Below, one piece after another: positions 861-59,066 of a stretch of DNA of 64,000 bases. The notes below the pieces were generated by a model. That model was not told where the DNA came from and made no database searches. It saw nothing but the letters and a program-made list of their open reading frames with translations. Source of the DNA: an uncultured Pseudomonadota bacterium (lineage in GTDB: Bacteria; Pseudomonadota; Alphaproteobacteria; Rs-D84); the NCBI GenBank assembly GCA_902799285.1, contig CADCAA010000003.1:38215-102214 (forward strand). Direction: 5' to 3'. Position 1 is the stretch's first letter; the number at the start of each line of letters is the position of its first letter. The position numbers were made by a program, and so were the translations under genes.

Positions 861-1050
861 ATTTTATCCTTACATTTTTTACATTAAAAAAAGGCGCCCA
901 CGCGCCCCAGCCACCGCCAAAGCGCAGTGAGGGTCTATTTAATAATAATTATACCTTTTTTGTTCATGATTGGCATTTTAATATATGTTTATGGCGATTT
1001 CCAGTTTTTTTTATTATTTTATAAAAAATTGACATGTACAGGGGAACAAA

Positions 1051-9771: not shown

Positions 9772-9809
9772 AAAGCGAAGTGTATTATAACAGCAAAATC
9801 CCTGATTGC

Positions 9810-9843
9810 AAATAAAAAATCGCCCGGGAATCCCCCGGGCAAT
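9810..9843 (-). terminator. Intrinsic terminator downstream of tRNA-Val(TAC)
   Basis: Hairpin GCCCGGG-AATCC-CCCGGGC followed by a T run on the minus strand. Confidence 0.55.
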
Positions 9844-9861
9844 TTACAAACAACCAAACGA

Positions 9862-9938
9862 TGGTGGATGTTAAGGGACTCGAACCCCTGACCCTCTGCG
9901 TGTAAAGCAGATGCTCTAGCCAACTGAGCTAAACATCC
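9862..9938 (-). tRNA. tRNA-Val (anticodon TAC)
   Basis: Reverse complement: acceptor GGATGTT/AACATCC, anticodon loop TTTACAC, GGTTCGAGTCC T-arm, CCA. Confidence 0.85.
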
Positions 9939-10076
9939 AACAAAGGTATTTTGATTATAGATTAAAAATTCCGGTTGTCCATATTTTTTTGTGCCCGGCA
10001 ATCACCGGCATTTTCCGCCCCAAATCCGATTCATTTTAATACGATTTTATCGCGGCCCTGTGCAAGCAGGGACGGA

Positions 10077-10793
10077 TTATTCCAAAAAGTATTCCACCGT
10101 GGCGACGACGCGAACCTTTTTATTTATCTGTTGCAATTCAGGCGCGTTTGCATTGTCGCGTGGCAATATTGAAAATACGCCTTGGTTTGCAGAATGTATC
10201 TTACCAACACTACTGTCGGACGATTTAGCAAACTCCAATGCGGCCTGGTGGGCGTTTTTAGTCGCCTGTTCCAGCATTTGCGGTTTTATATCGTTCAACC
10301 CGGTGAATATATACGACACCGGTGAATCATATCGATTTTCAAATACCACGCCCGCACTGATTAAATCGCCGGTTTTGGTATATGTTTCGGCAACATTTTG
10401 AACCTGGTTCGAACGCACAGTCATCGTCCGCGTCAAAATAAAGCGCGATTTTATATCGTCATTTCCGCGGTACGGATTCGCCATCAAATCGTTTGTATCC
10501 GTGCCGCCCATTTCGATTTCAGAATCGCCGAAACCATTATCGTGCAAAAACGCCAATATGACATCGGTCTGTTTTTCCAAATCGTTCCTTACCTGCGCCA
10601 AATCATTTCCGGTCGCGACATATTTAATTTCCCAAATTGCCAAATCGGCCACAACATCGCGTTCAGCCAATCCCTTGACCGTCACGGCATTAAATTCAAA
10701 TTTAGATTTGTAATAATAATACCCCGGGAAAAATCCCACAAACAACAGTCCGATTGCAATTATGCCAACATACCATAATGAAATTTTTTTCAA
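10077..10793 (-). CDS. SIMPL-domain (DUF541/BP26-like) periplasmic protein
   Basis: N-terminal TM/signal, ~238 aa, overall similarity to 26-kDa periplasmic immunogenic protein family members. Confidence 0.55.
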   Translation of the reverse strand: MKKISLWYVGIIAIGLLFVGFFPGYYYYKSKFEFNAVTVKGLAERDVVADLAIWEIKYVATGNDLAQVRNDLEKQTDVILAFLHDNGFGDSEIEMGGTDTNDLMANPYRGNDDIKSRFILTRTMTVRSNQVQNVAETYTKTGDLISAGVVFENRYDSPVSYIFTGLNDIKPQMLEQATKNAHQAALEFAKSSDSSVGKIHSANQGVFSILPRDNANAPELQQINKKVRVVATVEYFLE

Positions 10794-10850
10794 TATTCTC
10801 TCCTTTTTTACATATATTGGTGCAAAACAAAAATTAAATCCAGATATTTT

Positions 10851-11603
10851 TTATCTGTGTTTTTGTTCCCACGCCAAAGCATTTTTAATATATGCCGCGG
10901 CACGTTTTACATCAAATTTATCATCGGTTTTTAATTTACCTTCGGCATCCAGCCATATTGAATGATTGCCGGCAACGGTTGCAATTTTATCCAAATTACC
11001 CGCAATGTTTTCAGGGGATAATCCGCCGGAATAGCCCTGGGCATGTTTGCCCGGAAATACAGGTGCGCGCCATTCCGCCGCATCAATTCCACGGCCACCC
11101 GATGCATCAAACAGCAACTGGAATTTTGCACCGGTTTTATGTAATTCGTCCACCGCATTTTGTGTGCGTGCATTATATTGAATAATAAAATCTTGTTTGT
11201 CATAAAAGTCAATAACAGGTTTTAATTTTTGTGGGTTAAAGTTTTCTGCAGTTTTTTGTGGCATATTTAATTGAATGCGTTTAACAACGTGTTTATGCGT
11301 AGGTGTATGCCGCGCCCGAAATAAAGGTTTTAATGCGTCTGGGATTATACCATTACAAATATCATCGCACCAATCGTTGTTTACATGAATTGCCATATTC
11401 CAACTTCTGTATACAAACTTATTATCTTGCAGTTTTTCAACCAATTGTTTTATCCAATCATATCTTTCTGTATCTGGTGAAACTTTGCCTGGATGCATTT
11501 GGACGGCGATTTCAACACGCGGGTCAATATTCCACAAATCAAACATTTCATCAATCGAATTATAATTTCGTGGGTCAGAACATGTAATGTATTTAATTTG
11601 CAT
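10851..11603 (-). CDS. TIM-barrel protein with TrpF-like (phosphoribosylanthranilate isomerase family) C-terminal half
   Basis: The C-terminal LLFDASGGRGI...GYSGGLSPENIAGNL...WLDAEGKL pattern resembles the TrpF phosphate-binding region. The N-terminus is atypical. Start assigned at MQIKYIT with an AAGGAT ribosome-binding site. Confidence 0.35.
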   Translation of the reverse strand: MQIKYITCSDPRNYNSIDEMFDLWNIDPRVEIAVQMHPGKVSPDTERYDWIKQLVEKLQDNKFVYRSWNMAIHVNNDWCDDICNGIIPDALKPLFRARHTPTHKHVVKRIQLNMPQKTAENFNPQKLKPVIDFYDKQDFIIQYNARTQNAVDELHKTGAKFQLLFDASGGRGIDAAEWRAPVFPGKHAQGYSGGLSPENIAGNLDKIATVAGNHSIWLDAEGKLKTDDKFDVKRAAAYIKNALAWEQKHR

Positions 11604-11605
11604 AT

Positions 11606-12697
11606 TTAATCCTTTTTGTTGTTTAACCTTAATTGTCCACACGCAGACCCGATGTCGGTGCCGCGTTCCCTCCGAATTCTGGTATGTATTCCGTTTTTAA
11701 TTAAAATATCTTGGAATCGATGCACCGCGTTGCCCGATGGCGATGCAAAGTCGCGTTCGTCCACCGCATTCCACGGAATTAAATTTACCATACAATTTTT
11801 ACCAGCCAATAATTTTGATAATTGCTCTGCGTGCGCCGGGGTACAGTTATACAATTGTGTTTCGCCATTTTCGTCTTTTTTGCCCAACAAAATATATTCA
11901 ATCATCAATTGGCGATTATGCAGTTTTGTAAATTCATCGGCCGCGGCCAAAACCTCTGCGATTTTATACTTATTATTTATCGGCATAATAGACGAACGTA
12001 ATTCGTCCGTTGGTGCATGCAGTGAAATCGCCAAATTTATCGGCCGACCCCATTTTATCAAATCATAAATCCCCGGCACAATTCCACATGTCGAAACCGT
12101 GATTCGCCGCCAAGATATATTCAAATCATGATTGGCGCGTTCCAAAAATCCGATTACATTTTCAGTATTCTGTAATGGTTCGCCCGTGCCCATAACGTCA
12201 ATATGCGAAACATCGTTGTTATTTGCATCACCATTTGGGCGAATTTTTATATCGCCATTTCGTAATTCCCATTGTGCAACCAAAATTTGCGAAAATATTT
12301 CATCCACCGTTAAATTGCGTTTCAGGCCAAGCAGCGTGCTGGCACAAAATTTGCACCCCATGGCGCAACCGGCCTGGGAACTGACACATACAGAATTGCC
12401 GTATGTTGTGCGCATTAAAACACATTCGATTTGTTCGCAATCATTTAATTCTAATAAAAATTTAGTTGTCTCGGCATCCGCCGATTGCAATTTTTTAACG
12501 ATTTTGACCGGCAAAGTTTGTGCAATATCGGCCAATTTTGTGCGTAAAGCGGCCGGAATATTTTTCATCACACTAAAATCCGGCGCGCCACGTTGCAGCC
12601 AATCGCGAATTTGCGCTGCACGGAATTTTGGTTCGCCCAAATCCATCACAAATTTTTGCAATTCTGCATCATTCAAAGAAAAAAGAACGGTTTTCAT
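11606..12697 (-). CDS. rlmN: 23S rRNA/tRNA m2A methyltransferase RlmN (radical SAM)
   Basis: CxxxCxxC radical-SAM cluster (GCAMGCKFCAS) and RlmN-like N- and C-terminal regions. Confidence 0.9.
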   Translation of the reverse strand: MKTVLFSLNDAELQKFVMDLGEPKFRAAQIRDWLQRGAPDFSVMKNIPAALRTKLADIAQTLPVKIVKKLQSADAETTKFLLELNDCEQIECVLMRTTYGNSVCVSSQAGCAMGCKFCASTLLGLKRNLTVDEIFSQILVAQWELRNGDIKIRPNGDANNNDVSHIDVMGTGEPLQNTENVIGFLERANHDLNISWRRITVSTCGIVPGIYDLIKWGRPINLAISLHAPTDELRSSIMPINNKYKIAEVLAAADEFTKLHNRQLMIEYILLGKKDENGETQLYNCTPAHAEQLSKLLAGKNCMVNLIPWNAVDERDFASPSGNAVHRFQDILIKNGIHTRIRRERGTDIGSACGQLRLNNKKD

Positions 12698-13512
12698 AAT
12701 TTATATCTATCATCCTTGATAACAACCATCGCGCGCCGGCGCAGTTGTTTTAATTGTTGGTCGGCCATAAACATTGCCTGTTTATATTCGGCATTTTGTT
12801 TGATAACCTTGTTCAGGTTTCCATATTCGCGTGTGTTTTTTTCGCTGCACACTAAAAACACCGAAGAATTCACCGGTTTTGACCATGTCAGTTTCGGCAA
12901 ATCTGCAATTGCATCGCGTACATCCGCCGATAATTCATAATGCAACGCGGTAAACTTTTGCGGCGCACCACCAAAATTTTCAGCCATATGCATTGCATCA
13001 TCGCACGATTTTGGCTTTTCCAGTTTTTCATAAACACTTTGTGGCACATCAATCAATCGCACCAATGTTAATTCGACCGGCAAACCGCGTTCACGCGCCA
13101 ATTCGGCCCGCTCTGCCGCAATATCAGAATCCGACACATCGACCATTGGCAATACAGTTCGCGCAACAACAATTTGCCATGCGATATTTGCACGCACAGC
13201 CTCGCGCGCGATTGCCCGTTCATTTTGCGAAAGTTCTGGCAATCCCATACGCTTTAATTCTGCATCAACATCTTTGTCGGTGGGTTTAATTCCAAAGTTT
13301 CCGGCATAGTTTAATTTAACCACATCATCAATCATATTTTGTAATGCGACACGACGATTGTCTGTGGATGTGTGCCCTTGGTACGACATCAATTTTGTCC
13401 GCGCAGTAATATCCGCATCAGTAATAACACGGCCATTGACGGTTGCAACCACGGTTGTTGCATATGCCGGCAAACAAATCAAAGATAATAATGCGATAAT
13501 AAATTTTTTCAT
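12694..13512 (-). CDS. SurA N-terminal-domain periplasmic chaperone-like protein
   Basis: Signal peptide, position immediately downstream of lptD as in alphaproteobacteria, no PPIase domain. Confidence 0.55.
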   Translation of the reverse strand: MKKFIIALLSLICLPAYATTVVATVNGRVITDADITARTKLMSYQGHTSTDNRRVALQNMIDDVVKLNYAGNFGIKPTDKDVDAELKRMGLPELSQNERAIAREAVRANIAWQIVVARTVLPMVDVSDSDIAAERAELARERGLPVELTLVRLIDVPQSVYEKLEKPKSCDDAMHMAENFGGAPQKFTALHYELSADVRDAIADLPKLTWSKPVNSSVFLVCSEKNTREYGNLNKVIKQNAEYKQAMFMADQQLKQLRRRAMVVIKDDRYKL

Positions 13513-13527
13513 ATTTCCTATCCTTTC

Positions 13528-15540
13528 CTAGTAATCCAATCCAAATCTGAATTGGAAAGTTGTATTCCCAGTATAATCCGCACGTATAGCATAATCACGA
13601 TGATATGCCAACGACAGAAAATAACAAGGATGTTTGTAATACAATTGCCCAGAATGCCGTTGAAATTGACTGTATGTATTATTATAAATTGCGTTCATAT
13701 TCCAAGACAACCTTTCGGTCAATTGTATACGAAATCCGCCGGTTGTTTCATTTATATCTTGTCCTAAAAACGCCTCGTCCAGTTGTTCCGACCAAATATG
13801 TCCAACATAGATATAGTTGCGACTTGTGCCAATACGGCCATCTGTTTCAATATGACGCAAAGCAAAAGTATCACGGTCCAAACGCAATCTGGAATTCAAA
13901 CCAAACCAAGAACCATTGTTTAATCCAACGCGCGCAACATAATCAGAACCACCTTTGTGGAAACCGCTGTTCGGGTCGGTTTCAGACCGTTCGGTTAAAT
14001 CATAACTTTGTCCCACAAATATTTCCGCAGATTCGCCGTCCACACCGTATGTGGCCCAACGCATACCATAGTCCGCAAATGTCCCATTTTCCCATAAATC
14101 ATATCCCGAAAAACGGTTGTTTGAAAATAATGTCACATCCGATAATAATGTTCCCGCAGAATCATTGTTTGTTGCGAATAATTCCTGGGTATTGGTGTGT
14201 CGCATCACTGTCAATCTGGCGCGTGGCTCAATAATCTGTGTCCATTTTTCGCCGGGACGGAATAACGGCAAACCCCACTCAACATAGCCACTGGGTAAAA
14301 ATCTATTTTCCATGCCGGTAAAATTTGGCGTATCAATCAAATCATAGTTTTGAAAATTATACACATCATAACGTGCATCCAAACTGAGTGTTAATCTGTT
14401 TCCCCAACCCAATGTCCACGGCGATACAATTCGCGCATCACCAATCACACGCTGCATAGATGTATTATTATGGCCATCAACACCCAAAATATCGCCAGTG
14501 AACAGCGCATATGTCTCTTTGTATATTGGTGCGGTTTGGTACACCGAGCGTATATTTGGCAAAATGTTTCCGTCGGCCGCGGCCTCGGTCCGGCCGGCAT
14601 CACGCAGTTCTTGGAAAAAATGTGTGTCCGCGACAATGTATCCCGATTGCCCAAATAAATCCAATTCGGCACCCGAATCCAAATATGGTTGGTCGTTAAA
14701 GAACCCGTATTTTTGTAAATATGTTTTATCAGATGTGCGCTCCAATGCAAACTTTGCACGTGCGTATTCGCCCAGTTCCACAACGTCATTATTAAAAATA
14801 TGCCAACGATTTTCACCGGCCTGGTTATGGGTAAATGACCCGGTTGTCCTGAATTCAGAATGTTCGGCGTTTAACCGATGTTCCACCTGAATCAATGGGT
14901 TTTCCGCGGTTAAATATGACAGTGTCACCGTCGCATCATGATATTCAGACAACGAAATATATACAGGTAAATTTATTTGTGTTCCCATATTATTTGTAGA
15001 ATTCAAATCCGGCATCAACAGACCACTGCGATATTTAACGCCCGGATCCGGCATAGTATAATATGGAAAATAAAACACAGGAATTTCATACATCCATAAA
15101 ATAGGATTATGAAAATATAAATTACGTTCCGCGATATCATGCTTAATCGTTGTGGCGGAAATTTCCCACGCATTACCATATGAATCACAACCGTCGCACG
15201 CAGTGAACACAGCATCCTGGGCCACGGTAATATCGCCATCGCGTTTCACAGATTTTGCACTGATATAAATATGATTACCCAACCATAATTCGACATTTTT
15301 ACCGTCGACCTGGGCGCCTTTGTCAGAAAAACTGGAATCAGTCAGTTTTAATGTTTGGCCCGATTGATTTGTAATTGTTGTTTTTCCAACCGTTTTAATT
15401 TTTGCGTCGCGAACATTATATTCAACCCGTTCTGCGGTAATGTTTTTTGGTCCATCCATATCAATTGCCGGTCCCGCCGCATAGGTGTATGCGGTATACA
15501 TTACAACAAACAAAGATACAGTTAAACCAACCCGTTTCAT
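13528..15540 (-). CDS. lptD: LPS-assembly outer membrane protein LptD
   Basis: 670 aa with a signal peptide, an aromatic-rich beta-barrel C-terminus, and lptG-lptD-surA synteny. Confidence 0.8.
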   Translation of the reverse strand: MKRVGLTVSLFVVMYTAYTYAAGPAIDMDGPKNITAERVEYNVRDAKIKTVGKTTITNQSGQTLKLTDSSFSDKGAQVDGKNVELWLGNHIYISAKSVKRDGDITVAQDAVFTACDGCDSYGNAWEISATTIKHDIAERNLYFHNPILWMYEIPVFYFPYYTMPDPGVKYRSGLLMPDLNSTNNMGTQINLPVYISLSEYHDATVTLSYLTAENPLIQVEHRLNAEHSEFRTTGSFTHNQAGENRWHIFNNDVVELGEYARAKFALERTSDKTYLQKYGFFNDQPYLDSGAELDLFGQSGYIVADTHFFQELRDAGRTEAAADGNILPNIRSVYQTAPIYKETYALFTGDILGVDGHNNTSMQRVIGDARIVSPWTLGWGNRLTLSLDARYDVYNFQNYDLIDTPNFTGMENRFLPSGYVEWGLPLFRPGEKWTQIIEPRARLTVMRHTNTQELFATNNDSAGTLLSDVTLFSNNRFSGYDLWENGTFADYGMRWATYGVDGESAEIFVGQSYDLTERSETDPNSGFHKGGSDYVARVGLNNGSWFGLNSRLRLDRDTFALRHIETDGRIGTSRNYIYVGHIWSEQLDEAFLGQDINETTGGFRIQLTERLSWNMNAIYNNTYSQFQRHSGQLYYKHPCYFLSLAYHRDYAIRADYTGNTTFQFRFGLDY

Positions 15541-16595
15541 TTTTTATACAATATCACCATGGCCAATAATAAACACCCAAATATCCCAATTGCCAGTATA
15601 TAAAAATCACCCCAATCTGCCAACATATTTGCCGATGTCATATACAGCGTCATCAGCACCGCCATCGCCAACACGGCCGCGGCCGGTGATAAACTGGCGC
15701 GACGACGTAAAACAGATGTCTTTAACAAAATCGTTGCACAAACCACAGCCAAAATTAAATTCATAAACGGCATCAACAACCGATTGCTGAATTCGTTAAA
15801 TATCATTTTTTTATGTTTAGGCAAAATTTCCATATTGCTGTAATCCACTAATTCTTGCGTGGTCAAACGACGCACACGGAAAGAATTGCTGTTTTCACGT
15901 GTTGCCACATTCAAATCCATATCAAAGTTTTTGAACGTTCCGGTCACCATATTATCACTGCGCGCTTGCAACGAACCATTTTCCATAACTATGGATAATC
16001 CTTTTGGGGTAGTCACCAGTTTACCTGTTTCTGCAAATATAACCAATTCGGTTTTTGGATTGCGTGAATCGGACAGCATAACCTGGGACATATCGTGGCC
16101 GGAAACCTTGTCCACGTATACAACCAATCCATCGGCGATATTAGTAAATGCAGATTCTTGCAATTTCAAATGTGCCAAACCATAACGCAAATTCCATTGT
16201 GTGTCGTAAAAATAATTCTGGCTTAATGGCACAATCCAAATGTTTAATATTAAATTCAATGCGGTCAAAACGCCCGCAAACCATATTGCCGGCTTTGCCA
16301 ATTGTGCCGGCGACAGACCGGATGCCATCATCACAGACACTTCGTTATCAGAAATAATTTTGTTATAAACATAAATAACGGCAATAAACGTCACAAACGG
16401 AATAATGATGGATACAATAAACGGAATCAATAACGCGGTCAGTCCGATAAAACTGCCGAAATTAATGCCATAATTTAACAGGAATTTCATCATAGACATA
16501 ATTTGCATAGTCCATGCCAACCCCGTTAAAATCAGCAACAGCATAACAAATATCGCAATCAATTGCCGTAAAAAATACCTGTTTATAATCCTCAT
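15537..16595 (-). CDS. lptG: LPS export permease LptG/LptF (YjgP/YjgQ family)
   Basis: 352 aa with six TM segments and a periplasmic beta-jellyroll region. It overlaps lptD by 4 nt. Confidence 0.7.
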   Translation of the reverse strand: MRIINRYFLRQLIAIFVMLLLILTGLAWTMQIMSMMKFLLNYGINFGSFIGLTALLIPFIVSIIIPFVTFIAVIYVYNKIISDNEVSVMMASGLSPAQLAKPAIWFAGVLTALNLILNIWIVPLSQNYFYDTQWNLRYGLAHLKLQESAFTNIADGLVVYVDKVSGHDMSQVMLSDSRNPKTELVIFAETGKLVTTPKGLSIVMENGSLQARSDNMVTGTFKNFDMDLNVATRENSNSFRVRRLTTQELVDYSNMEILPKHKKMIFNEFSNRLLMPFMNLILAVVCATILLKTSVLRRRASLSPAAAVLAMAVLMTLYMTSANMLADWGDFYILAIGIFGCLLLAMVILYKK

Positions 16596-16719
16596 AATGT
16601 GTTAGTATAAAGCCCAAAAGACCGACCGTCAAATATATTATAAAATATGTATATTATTTTCTTGCAATTGCGAAAAAGCGTGTCATAATACAAATGTTCT
16701 TAAAAAAAATAAGTTTTTT

Positions 16720-16750
16720 AAGGGCGGGGTTGGAAAACCCCGCCCTTTTA
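16720..16750 (+). promoter_or_regulatory. Terminator-like hairpin in the nusA leader (AAGGGCGGGG-TTGGAAAA-CCCCGCCCTT + TTT)
   Basis: 10-bp GC stem 36 nt upstream of the nusA start. No upstream same-strand gene, so it may be an attenuator or autoregulatory structure. Confidence 0.35.
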
Positions 16751-16785
16751 GTAAAATAAAACAAAAAAACAACAGGAGTATAAAA

Positions 16786-18242
16786 ATGGCGTTCGTGTCT
16801 ATGCCGCGTCAAGATTTATTAGAAGGTATTAAATCTTTGGCCGAAGAAAAAAACATTGATAAAGAAATTGTGTTTGAATCTTTGGAAATTGCAATTGCAA
16901 AAATTGCAAAACATAAATATGGAAATTGCAATTGCAAAAATTGCAAAACATAAATATGGCGAAGAATTTAATATTACTGCATCTATTGACCGTAAAAATG
17001 GCGCAATTCATACCCAAAGATTGTTCGAGGTTATCGAAAGTCCCGAATCCAAAGGCGATGAATACGATCCAAATACAATGTTGACCGTGGCCCAGGCTAA
17101 AAAATACGCTGAAAATCCGTCTGTGGGCGACGTTGTGTCCGACCCATTACCGGAACCTGAATTCGGTCGTGTCGCATTTCAAACCGCGCGCCAAATTATG
17201 ATTGGTCGTGTTCGTGACGCCGAAAAGGGTCATCAATACGAAGATTTCAAGGACGAGGTTGGCACAATAGTCAACGGTGTTGTTAAACGTCTGGAATTCG
17301 GTAATGTCTATGTCGATATCAATGGCAAGGCCGAAGGCTATATTAAAAACACAGAATTAATCCCGGGCGAACGTTTGGCGGTGGGTGACCGTATTCGTGC
17401 GCTGGTTATGGATGTTGAACGTTCCAATACCGGTCCACAAATCTTTTTGACGCGTACGCATCCAATGTTTATGGAAAAATTGTTCGTCCAAGAGGTTCCA
17501 GAAATTTACGAAGGTATTAAATCTTTGGCCGAAGAAAAAAACATTGATAAAGAAATTGTGTTTGAATCTTTGGAAATTGCAATTGCAAAAATTGCAAAAC
17601 ATAAATATGCAACCGGCCAAGGTCGCAAAAATCATTATCGACGAAGATAAACATAAGGCCGCAATCGTTGTAAATCCTGACCAACAATCTTTGGCAATTG
17701 GTCGTCGTGGTCAAAATGTGCGCCTGGCTTCCCAATTAACTGGTTGGGATATCGACGTGTTAAGCGAAGAAGAAGAACAAGAACGTCGCGCCAAAGAGAC
17801 CAAGGAAAAAACAGAATTGTTCATCCGTGGGTTGGATGTTGATGAAATGATTGCACAAATCTTGATTAACGAAGGTTTCCGTACAATCGAAGAAATCGCG
17901 TTCGTTGATATCCACGAATTAGAATCAATCGAAAGTTTCAATGCAGAATTGGCGGCCGAATTGCAAAAACGTGCCAAAGATTATTTGGCCAAAATTGACC
18001 AAGATTATCGTGACCAAGGCCATAAATTGGGTATGACTGACGATTTGTTGGACTTTTCATTTGTTCAACGTCCAATTTTGATGAAATTGGGCGAAAACGG
18101 CATCAAAACTTTGACCGATTTGGCGGATTTGTCATCTGATGAATTGGTTGAAATTTTGGGCGAAGATACAATGTCTGCGCGCCTGGCCGGTCGTGTAATT
18201 ATGAAGGCCCGCGAACTGGCATACGATATCAAAGAGGATTAA
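16786..18242 (+). pseudogene. nusA: nusA homolog, disrupted. Contains the N-terminal domain, S1, the second part of KH2 and the C-terminal acidic repeats, but is frameshifted and lacks KH1
   Basis: MAFVSMPRQDLLEGIKSLAEEKNIDKEIVFESLEIAIAKIAKHKYG matches the NusA N-terminus and ...VPEIYEG matches the end of S1. MQPAKVAKIIIDEDKH...GRRGQNVRLASQLTGWDIDVL matches KH2. The reading frame changes twice, at 16922-16958 and at 17510-17609. Confidence 0.8.
16822..17609 (+). repeat. Perfect 100-bp direct repeats (16822-16921 and 17510-17609) within nusA, plus a 37-bp tandem duplication (16885-16921 / 16922-16958)
   Basis: Identical strings were read directly: GAAGGTATTAAATCTTTGGCCGAAGAAAAAAACATTGATAAAGAAATTGTGTTTGAATCTTTGGAAATTGCAATTGCAAAAATTGCAAAACATAAATATG. 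The last 37 nt are repeated once more in tandem after the first copy. Confidence 0.9.
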
Positions 18243-18268
18243 TAAAAAATAATACATGAGGTTTGTCT

Positions 18269-20662
18269 ATGGCAACATTAACTCTTGGAAAATCTGTGAC
18301 TTTGGACGCCGTGCAAAGTAAAAAGGGCGATGCGGTCTTTGTTGAACGTCGTCGTCGTATTGTTGCACCTGGCAGCCAAGAATTACGTGATGAACCGGAA
18401 AAGGCAACTGTCCAGCATAATGCGGCCGATGATAAATTGCGTGCCGTGTTGGAGGCTGCCCGTGCCCGCGAAGAAGAACAGAAAAAACGCCAGGCCGCCG
18501 AAGAGGCTGCCCGTGCCGCGCGCGAGGCTGAAATTGCGCGCGAGGCTGCCGAATACGAACAGGTTAAAAACCAATTAAACGCCCGCGAAAATGACGTGTT
18601 GGCCGAACCGGAACCTGTTTTGGAACCAAAATCTGTTCCGCAATCTGAACGTAATGCAAAAAAACAGCAATTTACAAACCACACAAAATCAAATCGTAAT
18701 GGCGATGACGATGATTCTATGCCACGCCAAAATAAATCTTTCAAAAAAGATTTCAAAAAGGCGGGCAAAATTTCCATTAACGACATTATTATGGGCGACG
18801 ATGACGACGAAGATGGTATCGAATTGCGCGGTGCAAATCGCCGGCGGTCCGAGGCATCGCTAAAACGTTTCCGTGAAAAGGCCCGTGCAGTATTTTCTGC
18901 CCCGCAGCGGGTTGAACGTGTTGTGAATCTGGGCGAAACAATTGTTGTCAAAGATTTGGCAAACGCATTGGCTGAAAAGGTCGGCAATGTCATCAAAAAA
19001 TTGATGGAAATGGGTATGATGGTGTCGGTCAATCAATCTATTGATGCCGATACTGCGGAATTGATTGCTGGCGAATTTGGCGCAACGGTAAAACGCGTTG
19101 TTGTAAAGCCGTATGCGGACCAACTGGAACGCGAACCAAATCCGGAAAATATGACCCCGCGTGCGCCAATTGTGACCGTTGTGGGCCATGTTGACCATGG
19201 TAAAACATCTTTGTTGGATGCATTCCGTAATGCAAATGTCGCAGCGGGCGAGGCCGGCGGAATTACCCAACACATTTCATCGTACGAGGTTAAAACGTCA
19301 TCCGGCCAAATGATTACATTTTTGGATACGCCGGGCCACGAAACATTTACGGCTATGCGTGCGCGTGGTGCACAAATGGCGGACATTGTGGTTTTGGTGG
19401 TTGCAGCCAACGATTCCATTATGCCCCAAACGATTGAGGCGATTAACCACATCCGTGCGGCAAACGTTCCATTTATTGTTGCAATCAATAAATGCGATTT
19501 GCCCGAGGCTAACCCAGAAAAGGTTAAAATCGATTTACTGCAACAAGAGGTCCAGGTTGAATCATTAGGTGGCGATGTTCAATGTGTTGAAATTTCTGCC
19601 AAACAAAAAACCAATTTGGATAAACTGGAAGAGGCCATTTTATTACAAGCCGCTATGATGGACTTAAAGGCGGATGCGGATATGCCGGCCGTCGCCAACG
19701 TGGTCGAGGCGAAAATGGAACGTGGCCTGGGCGCGGTTGCAACAATGATAATTCGCCAGGGTACATTAAAAATTGGCGATGTATTTGTTGTTGGTGAAAC
19801 ATTTGGTCGTGTGCGTGGTTTAATTAATTCCTTTGGCGAAAGGGTAAAATCCGTCAAACCCGGTCAACCGGTTATGGTTCTGGGGTTGGATGCGGTGCCT
19901 GCCGCTGGGGATGAATTGCGTGTAATGGAAACCGAGGCTCAAACGCGTGAGGTTGCCGCATATCGTGCACAACAGGCGCGTGACAAGGCAAATGCGGTTA
20001 AACGTTCGTCATTACAAGATTTGTTTGCCGCCCGTGACGAAACCAAAAAATTAATGTTGCCGATTATTTTGCGTGCCGACGTCCAAGGTTCAGTCGAAGC
20101 GATAACCGATATGTTGCACGGAATTAATTCTGACAAGGCCGGTGTCGATATATTGTCGTCCGGTGTTGGTCAAATTACCGAAGGCGATATCAGATTGGCT
20201 ACGGCATCTGGTGCGGTTATTATCGCGTTTAATGTCCGTGCGGATGCGGCTGTGCGTGATATGGCGCGCGCGTCTGGCGTTGATATTCGCTATCACAGTG
20301 TTGTGTATCGTATTACCGACGAAATCAAAGAAATCTTGTCCGGTAAATTGGCACCCGAACGCAAAGAAAACTTTATCGGATACGCCGATGTTATCGCATT
20401 GTTCACGGTTGGCAAAGGCACGCGCGTTGCGGGTTGTCGTATGACCGAAGGAACAATTAAAAAGGATGCTTTTGTGCGCTTACTGCGCAACAATGTTGTT
20501 ATATATGACGGCAAAATCGGTGAATTACGCCGCGAAAAGAACGAGGTCAAAGAGGTCACCGGTGGCGTCGAATTCGGTATGAGTTTTGATAAGTATAACG
20601 ACCTGAAAGAAGGCGACCGCGTTGAATGCTATGAGGTGACCGAGGTTCGTGCCGAAATATAA
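18269..20662 (+). CDS. infB: Translation initiation factor IF-2
   Basis: G domain ([22 protein letters not shown]) and the C-terminal beta-barrel domains. Start assigned at the ATG at 18269 with a GAGG ribosome-binding site. Confidence 0.95.
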
Positions 20663-20680
20663 CATTGTAAAAAAAATCCA

Positions 20681-20708
20681 GGGGGTGAAAGTCCCCCTTT
20701 TTTTATGC
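20681..20708 (+). terminator. Intrinsic terminator after infB
   Basis: GGGGG-TGAAAGT-CCCCC followed by T8. Confidence 0.6.
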
Positions 20709-20733
20709 AAATTTTTGTGATATAATATGAATT

Positions 20734-21216
20734 ATGAAAAACAAAATATTTACAGTTTTATTTGCGGTTATCTGTTTGCCAGCTTTGGCGAACGATACGA
20801 ATTTTACAAACTATGAAATGGACGATACGCCCCAATACGTCGATGATACGGGTATTGATTGGCATAAATTCAGTTCCGGTTATTTCGAATTGGACGAAAG
20901 TTCGCGCGGTCATGCGGCCGGATTAAATCCTGGCGATTGGCGTGCATTCTATCGTGACGAGACCGAGGTCCTGGGTACCGCAACATGCAATCAATATACT
21001 GAACCCGGATTGTTTACTGCGGCCGAAAAGCGCGGACCAAATTGTTGGTGCAAAATAATTGCAACAACCAAAGATATTCATAAAAATGCACCATCGAAAT
21101 GGATTTTACGTGGCGAATATGAAAACGCCGCTGAATGCGCACATATGTGCACGTATCGTTGTTCTTATAATTTCTTGGACGACCCCGATTTTCGTGGTGA
21201 AATATTTAATAAATAA
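20734..21216 (+). CDS. Hypothetical secreted Cys-rich protein
   Basis: Signal peptide MKNKIFTVLFAVICLPALA and eight Cys in the mature part. No family recognised. Confidence 0.5.
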   Translation: MKNKIFTVLFAVICLPALANDTNFTNYEMDDTPQYVDDTGIDWHKFSSGYFELDESSRGHAAGLNPGDWRAFYRDETEVLGTATCNQYTEPGLFTAAEKRGPNCWCKIIATTKDIHKNAPSKWILRGEYENAAECAHMCTYRCSYNFLDDPDFRGEIFNK

Positions 21217-21218
21217 AA

Positions 21219-21240
21219 AACCGGATTTTCCGGTTTTTAT
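21219..21240. terminator. Bidirectional terminator hairpin (AAAACCGG-ATTT-TCCGGTTTT) between convergent genes
   Basis: Palindromic hairpin flanked by A/T runs on both sides. Confidence 0.55.
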
Positions 21241-21701
21241 TTTTTTCTTTTTCTGAATTCATCCAATGATACCACCCTGCCATCATCCGGGACGGTGTTT
21301 TTATTTCCATCCAACGGCAATTCCATATCATTGTCCGCGGATTCAGGTTGTGATTTCGGATGAAATGTCAAAATAAAATCAACCGATGGATCTTTGAATT
21401 CAACCAAAGCCGAAAACGGCACACGAATAAAAAACGGCCGCCCATCAAATGTCAATTGCACACCAAATTCTTTGTCAGACACATGTAAATTATTATAAGA
21501 ATATTGCAACACAATCGTCATAATATCTGGATAACGCATACGCAAAAAGTCCGGCAATTGCACACCCGGGTCGCGCGTTTTAAATGTGATGAAAAAATGC
21601 GAACCATCGCCCAAACCATTTATCTGGGCATGAATCAATGCGTCCTTGACCACGGATTTCAATGCATTGTCCAATAAAAGTTGATAATCAATTCGTGCCA
21701 T
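21237..21701 (-). CDS. sspB: ClpXP adaptor SspB (alphaproteobacterial type)
   Basis: Resembles Caulobacter SspB-alpha: HFFITFKT..PGV.LP..L...YPD.MTIVLQ and a C-terminal acidic tail. Confidence 0.6.
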   Translation of the reverse strand: MARIDYQLLLDNALKSVVKDALIHAQINGLGDGSHFFITFKTRDPGVQLPDFLRMRYPDIMTIVLQYSYNNLHVSDKEFGVQLTFDGRPFFIRVPFSALVEFKDPSVDFILTFHPKSQPESADNDMELPLDGNKNTVPDDGRVVSLDEFRKRKK

Positions 21702-21717
21702 ATTTCCTTACCCTGAT

Positions 21718-22788
21718 TCACAGTATAGAATGAATTTCGCCATTATGGCAAGTGACAAATACGGCCCCCGGTACATCATCAAAAGACGATGCATCCAAAC
21801 CGGTCGCCCAAACTTGGGTATGTGTGTTTTCCAGTGTTGCAAAAATTTTCGCGCGTGCGGCCGAATCCAGATGGGCTGCGGCCTCGTCAAACAATACGAT
21901 ACAATCGCGTTTTGTTTTTGTGTGCAATAAATCTGTATGCGCCAAAATCAAATCAAATAACGCCGATTTTTGTTGGCCGGTACTGGTAAGGCGAACGGGC
22001 AAATCCAATTCATTGTTAAACATCCCAAAATCAGATTTGTGTGGCCCATCCAAAACCATTTTGTCATAAACCAATTCGCGATTTTGTGATAAATAATTTC
22101 TGTATTCGCGTTCGGCCACAGCGGCGGGTGCGCCCGATATAATCGTTTGTTCGACCATGCCATTTACAGACACACTGAACCGTTTCAGGAAATAATTAAC
22201 CTCGCCCGCGTATTGAACGCGCGTATTTGCAATTGCAACCGCCGCCGCCGCCAATTGGTCATCCAACGCGTCCAGCCATTTTGCATCCGCACCATTTTTT
22301 AATGCGAACGCACGTTCGGTCAAAAGTTTAGAAAATTTTGCGGTTCGCCCACTGTGATGTGAATCAAAATTGCTGGCCAATCGGTCAAAGAAAGCACGCC
22401 TGTCCGCAGATGCATCAACGAACAATCTGTCTTCCTTGGGCGAAATCCATACAATTCGCATAACGTTTCCCAAATCGTTCAATGACGTGTTTTCATCGTT
22501 TATCTTTGCGCGACGATTTGCGGCCCCCGCATTAAAATAAACACATACAGTATCGTCATCATCGGTTTTGCCAAACACAGAAAAATCGCCACCCCCTGAA
22601 AAACGTGCGATATCCGTCATATCAGCACCGCGCATACCTTTATCGCCCGACAACATAGATATTGCCTCTAATACTGCGGTTTTGCCGGCGCCATTTTCGC
22701 CAATTATGATAATATTCCGCGCGCCATTTGTATCAATACGCGACATTTTGTGATTACGGAAATCGGTCAGAGTTAAACTTTCAATCAT
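21718..22788 (-). CDS. recF: DNA replication/repair protein RecF
   Basis: Walker A GENGAGKT, an SMC-like signature (LSTGQQ) and a Walker B LLFDE. Start trimmed to MIESLTLTDF so that it does not overlap tRNA-Cys. Confidence 0.85.
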   Translation of the reverse strand: MIESLTLTDFRNHKMSRIDTNGARNIIIIGENGAGKTAVLEAISMLSGDKGMRGADMTDIARFSGGGDFSVFGKTDDDDTVCVYFNAGAANRRAKINDENTSLNDLGNVMRIVWISPKEDRLFVDASADRRAFFDRLASNFDSHHSGRTAKFSKLLTERAFALKNGADAKWLDALDDQLAAAAVAIANTRVQYAGEVNYFLKRFSVSVNGMVEQTIISGAPAAVAEREYRNYLSQNRELVYDKMVLDGPHKSDFGMFNNELDLPVRLTSTGQQKSALFDLILAHTDLLHTKTKRDCIVLFDEAAAHLDSAARAKIFATLENTHTQVWATGLDASSFDDVPGAVFVTCHNGEIHSIL

Positions 22789-22800
22789 TTTGGAATTATT

Positions 22801-22874
22801 TGGAGGCCAGGGTCGGAATCGAACCGGCATACAAGGATTTGCAGTCCTCTGCATAACCACTCTGCCACCTGGCC
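22801..22874 (-). tRNA. tRNA-Cys (anticodon GCA)
   Basis: The reverse complement GGCCAGGTGGCAGAGTGGTTATGCAGAGGACTGCAAATCC...GGTTCGATTCCGACCCTGGCCTCCA is close to canonical tRNA-Cys, with a U discriminator. Confidence 0.85.
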
Positions 22875-23026
22875 TTGTGAAATACGTGCTTGCATATTAA
22901 ACAAAATTTGGGGGCTTTGCAACATAAAATTTGTGATAAAAATCGGCATGTTTCAGGCATGTTTTTTTATTGCAAAAACGGGCTGTTTCCTATATAATTT
23001 ACCCAAAGAGCGTCGAGAGAGAATTA

Positions 23027-24355
23027 ATGAAAAAATCCATATTGTTTTTGGCATTATTGCCCGGGGTTGCGTTCGCAAATGATGATTGTGCGCGGTTGAA
23101 AACCGTGCCGGATACCACGCTTACATTGCCGATGGTGGTCAATTACGGTTTGTGCCGTAATCCGCAAACTGCGGCCGCATACGCATCGTATCGTGCATCG
23201 CATTTTAACAAAAACGCCGCGTATGCCAATTATTTGCCCAAGGTTGATGCACATGTGTCATCATCACGCAACCATCGTGTTCATGATGATTGGAATTACA
23301 GTGGTTCGCTGTCTGCGTCATATTTAATTTTTGATTTTGGAAAACGTTCGTCTGATTTCGCGGCAACATTGGCGACATATCGTGCGGCGGGATTTGATTA
23401 TGATGAAACGGTTCAAAATTATATTTATTCTGTGATTGGCGCGTATTATGAATTATTAAATGCTGATGCAAATGTAGATGCTGCGAATATGGCACTGACG
23501 GTCGCAAAAACCGCCAAAGATACCGCCGATAAAAAGTTCAAGGCCGGTGCCGTGGCCAAGGCCGACGTGTACAAGGCTGAAACAACATTGGCGTCCGCGG
23601 AATTAAAATTGGAACGCGCAAAAAATAATCGCGAAATTACCAAGGGAAATTTGCTGACAAAATTATCTTTCCCGGCCGACCAAGAAATCACAATCGCCGA
23701 TATGCCATCCAATTTTGGCAGTGATGCCGAAAGCAATGATATTGATAAGTTGATTGAAATTGCGCGTAAAAAACGCCCTGATTTATTAAAGGCGACCGCG
23801 AACCGCGACGCGGCATGGAATCGTCGTAATTCTGCGTTTTTGAAAAATTTACCGTCGATTTCCGTAACAGGTTCGGTTGATATGCGTGCGAATTCCGCCG
23901 GTGGTTTGTTTGAACATATGTCCGAACGTGCGGGTGGTTCGGTTGGAATATCTGTGTCTATGCCGATATTTGCGGGTTTTGCAAATATGTACAGTGCGCG
24001 TTCCGCGGTCGCAAATTATGATAATGCGGTGGAATCTGAACGTGCCGTGCAAAACAATGCAATGATGGATGTTTTTACAGCATATCAAAATTATAAAACT
24101 GCAAAAACGGTATTGGATCAAACGGATTCTTTATTGAAATCTGCGATTGAAAACGAACGCGTGACCAGTGGTATGTACAAGGTTGGACGCAGTACAATGT
24201 TGGATTGGCAACAGGCACAAAGCGATTTGATTGACGCGCGCAATCAAAATAACGCTGCAAAATATGATTTGTATGTCAAACGTGCCGCGGTGGCATTGGC
24301 GATTGGCGATATAGAAAGTGGGCTGGACGGAGAGATTGATGTTAAGCAAAATTAA
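23027..24355 (+). CDS. tolC: TolC-family outer membrane efflux protein
   Basis: Signal peptide and two TolC-like repeats. It is the first gene of a tripartite efflux operon. Confidence 0.8.
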   Translation: MKKSILFLALLPGVAFANDDCARLKTVPDTTLTLPMVVNYGLCRNPQTAAAYASYRASHFNKNAAYANYLPKVDAHVSSSRNHRVHDDWNYSGSLSASYLIFDFGKRSSDFAATLATYRAAGFDYDETVQNYIYSVIGAYYELLNADANVDAANMALTVAKTAKDTADKKFKAGAVAKADVYKAETTLASAELKLERAKNNREITKGNLLTKLSFPADQEITIADMPSNFGSDAESNDIDKLIEIARKKRPDLLKATANRDAAWNRRNSAFLKNLPSISVTGSVDMRANSAGGLFEHMSERAGGSVGISVSMPIFAGFANMYSARSAVANYDNAVESERAVQNNAMMDVFTAYQNYKTAKTVLDQTDSLLKSAIENERVTSGMYKVGRSTMLDWQQAQSDLIDARNQNNAAKYDLYVKRAAVALAIGDIESGLDGEIDVKQN

Positions 24356-25526
24356 GCAAATTTTATCGTGGCCTTTGCGCCACAAATGGTGGTCTTTGAT
24401 AATTATCGCCGTTGTTGTGATATTGTTTTTGATATTCGGTGGCACATCGAAAAAAAGCGGGGCCAAGGGCGATTTTGTGACTGTTGATATTAAACGCGGC
24501 GATTTGGAACAAGTGGTCAGTGCAACCGGTGAAATTATGCCTGTAAACACGGTCAGCGTCGGTTCCCAGGTTTCCGGCACAATCGAAGAAATTTACGCTG
24601 ATTATAATTCCCAGGTTGAACAAGGCCAAATATTATTAAAAATTGAACCGTCTGTATTAAAATCATCTGTGACCGAGGCTGGCGCGGCATTGGATTCTGC
24701 AAAATCACAAAGAAATTTAGCAAAAAGCGACTATATTCGTGATAAATCGTTGTATGCCGACGGCTTTATCGCGCGCGCAGAAATGGAAAAATCTCAATCT
24801 CAATACGAACAGGCCGAGGCCGCAGTCATCCGTGCGCAATCTCAGTATGACAAGGCTGTGACAAATCTTGGTTATGCAACAATTACATCTCCTGTAAATG
24901 GAACGGTTATCTCGCGCAAGGTTGATAAAGGCCAAACTGTTGCGGCATCTTTCCAAACGCCTGATTTGTTTGAAATTGCCGAAGATTTAACAAAAATGCA
25001 AATAGAAACTGCGGTCAGCGAGGCTGATATCGGTATGATTCAAACAGGACAACGCGTGACATTTACTGTTGATGCATATCCTGGCGATACATTTTCCGGT
25101 GTTGTTCGTCAAATCAGATTGTCGCCAACAACAACATCCAATGTGGTTGTGTACACTGTGGTAATTAATGTTGATAATGCGGATTTGCGCCTAATGCCGG
25201 GGATGACTGCGTTCGTCACAATAATTGTTAATCGTGCCGAAGATGTTTGGTATGCACAAAATTCTGCGTTCCTATTGCGTTCTTTTGAAAACATAGACGC
25301 CAATGCTGCGAACATATCAACGTCAGACCATTTGGCAATTTTGCGGGATAAACGGGTAATAATAATCCCGTACAAGAAGGGTCTGACTACGGCAACTGAA
25401 ACAGAAATCGTATCTGATAAAATAGAATCCGGCGATAAAATAATTGTTGGACGCGTTGGCCAGGCTTCATCATTGAAAAAATCTACGACACGCGGACGTC
25501 CAATGGGCGCCGGCGGTCCAATGTAA
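24339..25526 (+). CDS. macA: Periplasmic adaptor (membrane fusion protein, HlyD/MacA family)
   Basis: N-terminal TM, a coiled-coil hairpin, and a lipoyl/beta-barrel signature (VSPVNGTVISRKV). Confidence 0.75.
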   Translation: MLSKIKQILSWPLRHKWWSLIIIAVVVILFLIFGGTSKKSGAKGDFVTVDIKRGDLEQVVSATGEIMPVNTVSVGSQVSGTIEEIYADYNSQVEQGQILLKIEPSVLKSSVTEAGAALDSAKSQRNLAKSDYIRDKSLYADGFIARAEMEKSQSQYEQAEAAVIRAQSQYDKAVTNLGYATITSPVNGTVISRKVDKGQTVAASFQTPDLFEIAEDLTKMQIETAVSEADIGMIQTGQRVTFTVDAYPGDTFSGVVRQIRLSPTTTSNVVVYTVVINVDNADLRLMPGMTAFVTIIVNRAEDVWYAQNSAFLLRSFENIDANAANISTSDHLAILRDKRVIIIPYKKGLTTATETEIVSDKIESGDKIIVGRVGQASSLKKSTTRGRPMGAGGPM

Positions 25527-58442: not shown

Positions 58443-59066
58443 CTAGAATCCTTTTGGTGTGGACATTTTAACAGTCGACACTTTTTTGTTTAATGCCTTG
58501 ACCACGTCATCTGTGATGTCCAGATTTTCAACATTTGCGCCGGTACGAGCAAAACGACCATCAATAACCAAAGACAAATTTTTCTTTGCAATTATGCCTT
58601 CGATAATCGGGTCCAAATGTTTTTCTTGGATATCGGCCAAAGCACGCTGATATGATTCTTCGATGCTTTGTGCGCGTTCTGTTAAACTGCGTTGCAAATT
58701 TGCAACACGTTTTTGATAATCAACAACGCGACGTTGCAAAGCCTCGGGCGACAAAACATCCTGTGATTTTTCAATTTCTGCCTTTTCTTTTTCCAATATT
58801 TTTTGTTCAGATGTTAATTCATCGCGCAATTTCTTTTCATAATTTTCTTTCTTTGCACGCAATTCTTTCAAAGCCGCCGAATCAGTTTGCACGGCATCCA
58901 TACGAATAACCGCAATACGCATATCTGCGCCGGTGATTGCGTTTTCGGATACTTCGGAAATGGCCTCGTTCACTGTGACCTCGTGCCGCATAGATGCCAC
59001 CGCCCATATGCCCAATTTTATAGTTTTTAATTGTGATGTTATTTGTGTTTGCTTTTGCCATATCAT
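58443..59066 (-). CDS. Skp/OmpH-family periplasmic chaperone-like protein with an atypical N-terminus
   Basis: ADMRIAVIRMDAV... and a long coiled coil match Skp. The first ~45 aa lack a convincing signal peptide. Confidence 0.5.
   Translation of the reverse strand: MIWQKQTQITSQLKTIKLGIWAVASMRHEVTVNEAISEVSENAITGADMRIAVIRMDAVQTDSAALKELRAKKENYEKKLRDELTSEQKILEKEKAEIEKSQDVLSPEALQRRVVDYQKRVANLQRSLTERAQSIEESYQRALADIQEKHLDPIIEGIIAKKNLSLVIDGRFARTGANVENLDITDDVVKALNKKVSTVKMSTPKGF

What the first reader, a model, noticed from the sequence alone, without database searches (positions are those of the whole stretch)
16786..18242. nusA is broken by self-derived duplications: a 37-bp tandem duplication plus a 100-bp direct repeat sitting where KH1 should be
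Read directly: nusA codons 13-45 (16822-16921) recur verbatim at 17510-17609. That is exactly the place where, after the S1 domain (...VPEIYEG), a NusA should continue into KH1 (~75 aa with a GxxG-containing RNA-binding fold). The gene instead resumes in a different frame at MQPAKVAKIIIDEDKH (KH2). In addition, the last 37 nt of the first copy are duplicated in tandem (16922-16958), which shifts the frame and hits TAA at 16951. All three NusA segments are otherwise well conserved, so this is a very recent or artefactual lesion in an essential gene. Both insertions are 1 mod 3 in length. Possible explanations are a repeat-collapse misassembly, a true pseudogene with an intact nusA elsewhere, or recombination between intragenic microhomologies. 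Any of these matters for interpreting the nusA-infB operon.
Basis: partly seen in the sequence, partly recalled or inferred. Interest (0 to 1): 0.8.

Follow-up and report, generated by a model that had tools for sequence, protein, structure and literature searches.

The report
Misassembled nusA in a rumen MAG

Summary
Positions 16822-16921 recur verbatim at 17510-17609, exactly 100 nt. Positions 16885-16921 are duplicated in tandem at 16922-16958. nusA is left in three frames and lacks KH1. The lesion is in the public record: the three fragments occur verbatim on one 104,441-bp contig.

It is very probably not biology. Two other assemblies of an almost identical strain carry an intact 510-aa NusA that matches all three window pieces at 100%. 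Against them the window has +37 nt, and 200 nt (nusA nt 698-897, KH1) replaced by 87 nt copied from the gene's 5' end.

The window has only three structural-difference sites, and each lies where contigs of other assemblies end. A 40-nt "deletion" in skp is demonstrably two contig ends abutted across a coverage gap in the probable source run, ERR3201387. That run's own Logan contig crosses the nusA 5' end without the duplication and stops 12 nt before the second junction. None of the three junction sequences occurs in the other 101 loci fetched.

Verdict: a local assembly error in a low-coverage MAG (about 0.85). A real, very recent template-switch mutation remains possible (about 0.1). Interest is low.

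The parts
16786..16921 (+). nusA piece 1: codons 1-45 plus one base, the start of the NusA N-terminal domain. Identical to nt 1-136 of the intact allele.
16822..16921 (+). Native copy of the 100-nt block (nusA nt 37-136).
16922..16958 (+). Extra 37-nt tandem copy of 16885-16921 (junction J1, 3-nt TGG microhomology). It shifts the frame and creates TAA at 16951-16953. It is absent from L001, L002, L005 and from the Logan contig L006 of run ERR3201387.
16959..17519 (+). nusA piece 2: the rest of the N-terminal domain plus S1 (intact-allele nt 137-697), ending ...VPEIYEGI.
17510..17609 (+). Misplaced second copy of the 100-nt block. 17510-17519 (GAAGGTATTA) and 17607-17609 (ATG) are also native here; 17520-17606 (87 nt) are foreign to the site. 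It occupies the place of 200 nt (intact-allele nt 698-897) that encode KH1. The junctions are J2 at 17519/17520 and J3 at 17609/17610.
17607..18242 (+). nusA piece 3: last codon of KH1 (Met), KH2 and two C-terminal HhH repeats, 211 codons plus stop. 100% identical to the intact allele.
18269..20662 (+). infB (IF2, 797 aa), intact and downstream in the same operon. The identical protein is on 4 public contigs.
59016..59017 (.). Second false join in the same contig. 40 nt of the skp/ompH 5' end are missing here. Logan contig ERR3201387_75766 and scaffold_184 both end at exactly 59016, and right-hand contigs carry part or all of the 40 nt.
1036..1037 (.). Third window-private indel. 27 intergenic nt (TGGCTCAAATTTGCTATTGTTTTTGTA) are missing. 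They are present in scaffold_184 and in k87_27021858, whose contig ends 5 nt beyond them.

Best explanation
The lesion is a local assembly error in the deposited metagenome-assembled genome, a Candidatus Enterousia-like rumen alphaproteobacterium at low coverage. The 104-kb contig was built by carrying the assembly across short-read coverage gaps.

- At two gaps (1036/7 and 59016/7) contig ends were simply abutted, which lost 27 and 40 nt.
- Inside nusA the gap at nt 686-697 was bridged wrongly. The end of the S1-coding contig was joined through a 10-nt identity (GAAGGTATTA) to a 100-nt block from the gene's own 5' end, and that block was then joined to the KH2 region. The 200 nt encoding KH1 were dropped.
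- The 37-nt tandem copy has the form expected when two pieces that truly overlap by about 40 nt are joined without merging the overlap.

The organism itself most likely has an ordinary intact rimP-less nusA-infB operon.

Shown:
- Other assemblies give the intact sequence.
- The anomalies coincide with contig ends.
- The skp join is false.
- The duplication is absent from the source run's own k=31 contig.

Inferred:
- The nusA junctions lack read support.
- Which program step made them.
For: 1. An intact allele exists. P0001 (510 aa) is 100% identical to all three window pieces and carries 68 aa of KH1.
2. Its contigs L001 and L002 match the window over 21 kb with 1-5 mismatches apart from the lesion.
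3. The broken fragments occur on only one public contig. None of the three junction sequences occurs in any of the 91 loci held, including L001-L006 (the 10 loci fetched later lie elsewhere in the window), while the wild-type junctions are shared even with other species.
4. All three structural-difference sites between the window and other assemblies (1036/7, nusA, 59016/7) lie within 35 nt of contig ends in those assemblies. By my own estimate, with about 8 such break sites in 64 kb, the chance of a triple coincidence is about 7e-7.
5. At nusA, MEGAHIT contig L005 ends at nt 696 with a tip error. L003 begins at nt 686 with intact KH1. Logan contig L006 ends at nt 685. They overlap by 11 nt, so these are dead ends and not graph neighbours.
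6. The source run is very probably ERR3201387. The window-private SNP 12198 occurs otherwise only in a Logan contig of that run, and four Logan contigs of that run match the window with 0 mismatches.
7. That run's contig L006 crosses nusA nt 1-685 without the 37-nt duplication. A clonal 37-nt tandem copy would make a loop at k=31 and break the contig.
8. The skp join is demonstrably false. L095 and L094 end at exactly 59016. L099, from the same run, continues 4 nt into the missing 40 nt. L098 continues 24 nt, and L097 crosses all 40 nt.
9. The window-private changes look unselected: one nonsense SNP, one radical missense, two gene-breaking indels and no synonymous change. The rest of the window is densely packed with intact genes.
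10. 480 of 586 candidate stretches in GTDB species-representative genomes encode a NusA relative. The best 80 loci (one genome per species) are all uninterrupted over residues 1-507/510.
11. Such errors are documented for MAGs, especially from IDBA-UD (PMC7111523). IDBA-UD was the single-sample assembler of the study whose k87 co-assembly contigs appear here (PMC6785717).
Against: - No reads could be mapped, so lack of read support for J1-J3 is inferred and not shown.
- KH1 could not be shown directly in contigs of run ERR3201387.
- The nusA junctions carry 3, 10 and 3 nt of microhomology, whereas the two simple abutments have 1 nt or less. The nusA error therefore is not a plain abutment, and it resembles real template-switch rearrangements.
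- J1 does not coincide with any contig end in other assemblies.
- De Bruijn assemblers with k of 20 or more should not create such junctions without at least one chimeric read, so the exact generating step is unknown.
- The identity of the source run, and whether ERZ27280636 and ERZ28614334 derive from the same sample, are inferred from shared contig ends and one SNP. SNP 12198 differs between them.
Confidence: 0.85

Rival explanations
1. A real, very recent complex mutation in this strain or in a subpopulation. Replication stalled after the quasi-palindromic AT-rich stretch ...GAAATTGCAATTGCAAAAATTGCAAAACATAAATATG. The polymerase then switched template three times within 800 nt, in the manner of MMBIR/FoSTeS or slipped-strand events. 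The result is a 37-nt duplication and a deletion-plus-insertion that removes KH1 and makes nusA a pseudogene.
For: - There is microhomology at all three junctions (TGG, GAAGGTATTA, ATG). Two of the three switches leave from the same base, the end of the 100-nt block.
- The sequence is in a public deposit.
- At least one other window-private change (SNP 12198) is supported by an independent assembly of the run, so the source strain is genuinely slightly distinct.
Against: - The k=31 contig of the same run lacks the duplication.
- The junctions are absent from every other locus.
- J2 coincides with dead ends of other assemblies.
- The same contig has a provably false join at skp.
- A strain with broken nusA, skp and rluB within 64 kb, and no synonymous change, is implausible as a dominant population.
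- NusA is conserved intact in every relative examined.
Confidence: 0.1
2. A library artefact rather than an assembler artefact. One chimeric DNA fragment, formed by in-vitro template switching during library amplification, supplied the only path across a true coverage gap, and the assembler followed it faithfully.
For: - The junction microhomologies and the 100% identity of the copied segments fit a polymerase copy rather than noise.
- All three junctions lie within 740 nt, so they could sit on one fragment.
- The wild-type path has a real gap at nt 686-697.
Against: - It cannot be told apart from the best explanation with these tools. It is a sub-case of 'not the true genome sequence'.
- It does not explain the two plain abutments elsewhere in the contig.
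Confidence: 0.04
3. A functional arrangement: a split or recoded NusA expressed by programmed frameshifting, or a mobile or selfish insertion in nusA.
For: None beyond the fact that the three pieces are individually intact.
Against: - KH1 is absent in any frame.
- The inserted DNA is a verbatim copy of the gene's own 5' end, with no element features.
- Two +1 shifts are not compensated.
- No relative shows anything similar.
Confidence: 0.01

Closest known systems
Local assembly errors in metagenome-assembled genomes, as described by Chen, Anantharaman, Shaiber, Eren and Banfield 2020 (PMC7111523): consensus without read support, duplicated sequence at scaffold joins, and wrong copy number of local repeats
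   Same: - The error is confined to a few hundred bases and breaks a protein-coding gene.
- It sits at a point where assembly stops in other assemblers.
- A tandem duplicate appears at a join.
- Neighbouring joins in the same contig lose a few tens of bases.
[quoted passage not shown]
   Different: - There are no Ns at the joins here (the window has no N).
- The nusA error includes a misplaced 100-nt block joined through 10-nt and 3-nt identities, which is more elaborate than the cases described.
- Read support could not be examined.
Microhomology-mediated template switching (MMBIR/FoSTeS, slipped-strand or quasi-palindrome-associated rearrangements); comparison from general knowledge
   Same: - Several breakpoints lie within less than 1 kb.
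- Microhomology at the junctions is 3-10 nt.
- Duplication and deletion occur together.
- An AT-rich quasi-palindrome lies next to the recurrent breakpoint.
   Different: - Nothing shows that the event happened in a cell.
- The alleles seen in every other assembly, including a contig of the probable source run, are wild type.
Bacterial NusA (TIGR01953 plus the C-terminal HhH duplication TIGR01954)
   Same: The N-terminal domain, S1, KH2 and two HhH repeats are present and 100% identical to an intact homologue. The gene sits directly upstream of infB.
   Different: As written it lacks KH1 and is split over three frames.

Membership tests
NusA (TIGR01953 / Pfam NusA_N, S1, KH_NusA_1st, KH_NusA_2nd) | N-terminal RNAP-binding domain and S1 domain | tested here: met
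   NusA_N scores 1e-27 to 1e-28 and S1 about 1e-8 in pieces 1 and 2. TIGR01953 profile positions 2-216 are matched.
NusA (TIGR01953 / Pfam NusA_N, S1, KH_NusA_1st, KH_NusA_2nd) | First KH domain (PF13184), with its GxxG loop, between S1 and KH2 | tested here: not met
   There is no KH1 hit in any piece. tblastn of the intact protein finds no match for residues 258-299 and only a weaker, non-identical stretch over 233-257 read through the misplaced block. Intact homologues all have PF13184.
NusA (TIGR01953 / Pfam NusA_N, S1, KH_NusA_1st, KH_NusA_2nd) | One continuous reading frame | tested here: not met
   The three pieces lie in three frames, with TAA at 16951.
Local assembly error of a MAG (criteria of PMC7111523) | The consensus in the region lacks perfect support by reads | not testable with these tools
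   No read data are available. The indirect evidence is that junction sequences are absent from all other contigs and that the duplication is absent from Logan contig L006 of the probable source run.
Local assembly error of a MAG (criteria of PMC7111523) | It lies at a point where assembly terminates or is scaffolded | tested here: met
   J2 lies within 1-12 nt of the ends of L005, L003 and L006. The other two private indels also lie at contig ends.
Local assembly error of a MAG (criteria of PMC7111523) | Other assemblies of the same population give a different, coherent sequence | tested here: met
   L001 and L002 carry intact nusA with 1-5 mismatches over 21 kb. L097 crosses the 40 nt missing in skp.
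Genuine pseudogene | The lesion is reproducible in independent data from the organism | tested here: not met
   The fragments occur on one contig only, and the same-run Logan contig lacks J1.
Genuine pseudogene | Further decay of the dead pieces, or a second functional copy | tested here: inconclusive
   The 1.3 kb of nusA pieces have no substitutions against the intact allele. There is no second nusA in the 64-kb window. The rest of the genome is not available.
Microhomology-mediated template-switch rearrangement | Microhomology at each junction | tested here: met
   TGG, GAAGGTATTA and ATG. This feature is also compatible with overlap-based false joins.

The most novel reading that the evidence does not exclude
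The lesion is a real, freshly arisen multi-step template-switch rearrangement that has knocked out KH1 of NusA in a natural gut or rumen Enterousia-like strain. That would mean NusA, or at least its KH1 domain, is dispensable in this small-genome alphaproteobacterium, or that a dying lineage was caught in the act.
Probability: 0.08. Interest if true: 0.45.

Novelty: not a real feature. Interest (0 to 1): 0.08.

Why it matters
The value is mainly quality control. A deposited MAG carries a false pseudogene of an essential transcription factor, and the public protein collection now holds three bogus NusA fragments. The same contig has at least one more false gene break (skp) and a private, unverified stop codon (rluB-like).

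Anyone scoring gene loss, pseudogenisation or genome reduction in this lineage from such MAGs would be misled. Nothing new follows for the biology of the nusA-infB operon.

Tried and rejected
- **Planted or edited sequence.** Rejected: the 55-, 243- and 211-aa fragments are in the public collection on a 104,441-bp contig.
- **Search for the source or relatives by exact 47-mer.** No hit in the GTDB representatives or the JGI metagenomes.
- **Fetching the source contig by its fragment proteins.** They are not on record in the gene-position index.
- **Showing KH1 in contigs of run ERR3201387.** This failed. The partial product could not be looked up, and two protein searches did not return it. 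One search was also set too strictly.
- **General duplication-prone assembly.** Rejected: the other perfect tandem copy (53754-53827, 38 nt) and the 32-nt array at 39280-39482 are present in other assemblies too.
- **Contig breaks caused by a real A/C polymorphism at nusA nt 686.** No relative has C there, so the C in L005 is best read as a tip error.
- **Low GC as the cause of the coverage gaps.** Only partly supported. Three of six breakpoints lie in the lowest ~5% of 60-nt GC windows.
- **Programmed frameshifting, split gene or mobile element.** Rejected, because the KH1 coding sequence is simply absent and the insert is self-derived.
- **One cluster look-up was partly wasted.** I trimmed the wrong end of the minus-strand genes.
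- **Paper search for the accession numbers.** It found nothing.

Full report
**1. What is in the sequence**

- Window 16822-16921 is repeated verbatim at 17510-17609. The match is exactly 100 nt and cannot be extended on either side.
- 16885-16921 is repeated in tandem at 16922-16958 (TRF: period 37, 2.1 copies, 100% match).
- The ORF that starts at 16786 stops at TAA 16951-16953 after 55 codons. The gene continues in a second frame from 16919 (243 aa from the ATG) and in a third from 17607 (211 aa).
- Pfam and NCBIfam find NusA_N, S1, KH2 and two HhH repeats but no first KH domain. In TIGR01953 the first stretch ends at profile position 216 of 340, where KH1 should begin.

**2. What the intact gene looks like**

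- I searched with the three pieces joined. The best hit, P0001, is a 510-aa NusA that is 100% identical to all three pieces and carries 68 further residues (IKIKSVSRAPGSH...AVYIVNAM, i.e. KH1) exactly at the break.
- Its contig (L001; ENA ERZ28614334, scaffold_184) matches the window as follows:
  - L001 1-10137 = window 6786-16922, with one mismatch.
  - L001 10098-10697 = window 16920-17519.
  - L001 10898-21533 = window 17607-28242, with no mismatch.
- Relative to an otherwise identical genome the window therefore has +37 nt, and 200 nt (nusA nt 698-897) replaced by 87 nt copied from nusA nt 47-133.
- The first 10 nt (GAAGGTATTA) and the last 3 nt (ATG) of the 100-nt block are native to both places. 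The tandem copy has a 3-nt TGG microhomology.
- A second assembly (ERZ1029116, k87_20586014; L002) also has the intact gene.

**3. Is the lesion in the public record?**

Yes. The 55-, 243- and 211-aa fragments are in the protein collection (sources NCBI and ENA), each on a single contig of 104,441 bp. This is a deposited MAG, not an edited test sequence.

The organism is a Candidatus Enterousia-like gut or rumen alphaproteobacterium. 480 of 586 candidate stretches in GTDB species-representative genomes encode a NusA relative, and the best 80 loci are all uninterrupted over residues 1-507/510.

**4. Where the window differs from other assemblies**

I compared the window with nine further contigs, covering 1-30.7 kb and 33.9-64 kb. 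There are only five window-private differences:
- a 27-nt intergenic deletion at 1036/1037;
- SNP 12198 (RlmN V167D);
- the nusA lesion;
- SNP 46886 (TAT to TAG, Y135* in an RluB-like pseudouridine synthase);
- a 40-nt frameshifting deletion at 59016/59017 in the signal-peptide region of skp/ompH.

None is synonymous, which is the pattern of unselected changes. The rest of the window is densely packed with intact genes. The other perfect tandem repeat (53754-53827) is shared by other assemblies and is therefore genuine.

**5. The structural differences sit at contig ends**

- At nusA:
  - MEGAHIT contig k141_777914 (L005) ends at nusA nt 696, with an A-to-C error 10 nt from its tip.
  - k141_941090 (L003) begins at nt 686 and reads straight into intact KH1.
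  - Logan contig ERR3201387_26326 (L006) ends at nt 685.
  - L005 and L003 overlap by only 11 nt, so these are dead ends at a coverage gap, not branch points.
  - No relative has C at nt 686.
- At 59016, scaffold_184 (L094) and Logan ERR3201387_75766 (L095) both end on exactly the base where the window's deletion begins.
- At 1036/7, k87_27021858 (L090) ends 5 nt past the 27 nt that the window lacks.
- By my own estimate, with about eight break sites seen in 64 kb, three out of three coincidences within 35 nt have a chance of roughly 7e-7.

**6. The source run and what it says**

The window-private SNP 12198 is otherwise found only in Logan contig ERR3201387_41456. Four Logan contigs of that run match the window with no mismatch. 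ERR3201387 is therefore very probably the run from which the MAG was assembled. Two results from it bear on the finding:
- L006 runs through nusA nt 1-685 without the 37-nt duplication. If the duplication were the true clonal sequence, it would form a loop in a k=31 graph and break that contig.
- At skp, the right-hand Logan contig L099 ends ...CTATAAAAAAAC. That is 4 nt into the 40-nt segment and follows the wild-type sequence, not the window's. Scaffold_426 (L098) goes 24 nt into the segment, and MEGAHIT k141_212353 (L097, no mismatch to the window) crosses all 40 nt.
- The window's skp "deletion" is therefore two contig ends abutted across a low-coverage gap. It is a false join in the same contig.

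**7. Interpretation**

The 104-kb contig spans what other assemblers leave as pieces of 4-63 kb, and each place where it bridges a gap imperfectly shows an anomaly.
- The 27-nt and 40-nt losses are plain abutments, with 1 nt of microhomology or less.
- The 37-nt tandem copy has the form of an unmerged overlap.
- The replacement of KH1 by a 100-nt block from 650 nt upstream is a false fill, made through a 10-nt identity.

Chen et al. 2020 describe these classes of local assembly error in MAGs: unsupported consensus, duplicate sequence at scaffold joins, and wrong local repeat number. They suspect the errors are particularly frequent with IDBA-UD (PMC7111523).

The 'k87_' contigs fit the MEGAHIT co-assemblies of Stewart et al. 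2019. That study made its single-sample assemblies with IDBA-UD (PMC6785717). IDBA-UD's default maximum k is 100 (from my own knowledge), which equals the length of the repeated block. I treat this as a lead only, because I could not identify the MAG's record or its assembler.

**8. What remains open**

- I could not map reads, and I could not retrieve a contig of ERR3201387 that carries KH1.
- The nusA junctions have more microhomology (3, 10, 3 nt) than the simple abutments. Two of the three breakpoints leave from the same base, next to an AT-rich quasi-palindrome. That is also what a real template-switch event, or a chimeric library fragment, would look like.
- J1 does not coincide with a contig end elsewhere.
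- I give a real mutation about 0.1, a chimeric-fragment origin about 0.04, and any functional reading about 0.01.

**9. Verdict**

The most likely explanation is an assembly artefact in a low-coverage MAG, so this is not a real feature of the organism and its interest is low. Its practical value is as a warning about false pseudogenes, and the bogus protein fragments they produce, in public MAG data.

Noticed in passing
window 59016/59017 (skp/ompH, minus strand, about 58443-59061): The window lacks 40 nt (ATTGCGACAACCAAAACAATGGCGGCAACAATACCGGTTT on the + strand) that other assemblies have. This frameshifts the 5' end of skp and removes its hydrophobic signal segment. It is shown to be two contig ends abutted across a coverage gap.
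   Followed up: yes
window 1036/1037: 27 intergenic nt (TGGCTCAAATTTGCTATTGTTTTTGTA) present in scaffold_184 and k87_27021858 are missing from the window. The site lies next to a TTGACA motif in a very AT-rich spacer and coincides with contig ends in other assemblies.
   Followed up: partly
window 46886: A window-private SNP, TAT to TAG, truncates a 232-aa RluB-like pseudouridine synthase (46482-47180, +) at codon 135. The 134-aa product is on record only from the 104-kb contig, and the intact form is in three other assemblies. Probably a consensus error at low depth.
   Followed up: partly
window 12198: A window-private SNP gives RlmN V167D (GTC to GAC). Unlike the other private changes it is also present in a Logan contig of run ERR3201387, so it is read-supported. 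This links the window to that run.
   Followed up: yes
window 8385-8414, 33594-33607, 35645-35677, 39407-39420, 41574-41587, 53719-53749, 59153-59166: Short tandem arrays of the heptamer TGAACTY, all on the + strand: 11 matches to a two-unit pattern against 0.04 expected. Most lie next to hairpin-like intergenic repeats, for example the 46-nt pair at 33641 and 59160. One array lies inside the MetRS coding region. Function unknown.
   Followed up: no
window 39280-39482: An imperfect tandem array with a 32/64-nt period (about 6 units, TGAACTCTCGCTGTAGCGTCAGCGCAAGCGGA) lies in the spacer between der/engA and pnp, upstream of pnp on the minus strand. The k87 co-assembly contig has it too, so it is genuine. 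It might be a structured leader or a REP-like element.
   Followed up: no
window 53754-53827: A perfect 38-nt tandem pair (TCCGGGCCCCGCAAAATTGTCAAATTTTGTGGGTGGAT), each unit a hairpin, lies between cysS and mreB. It is also present in scaffold_184, so it is not an artefact.
   Followed up: partly
window 16718-16752: A strong GC-rich hairpin followed by a T-run (AAGGGCGGGGTTGGAAAACCCCGCCCTTTT) lies about 35 nt upstream of the nusA start codon, and no rimP gene precedes nusA. It could be a leader terminator of the kind used for NusA autoregulation in other bacteria (from general knowledge). The simple terminator scan did not list it.
   Followed up: no
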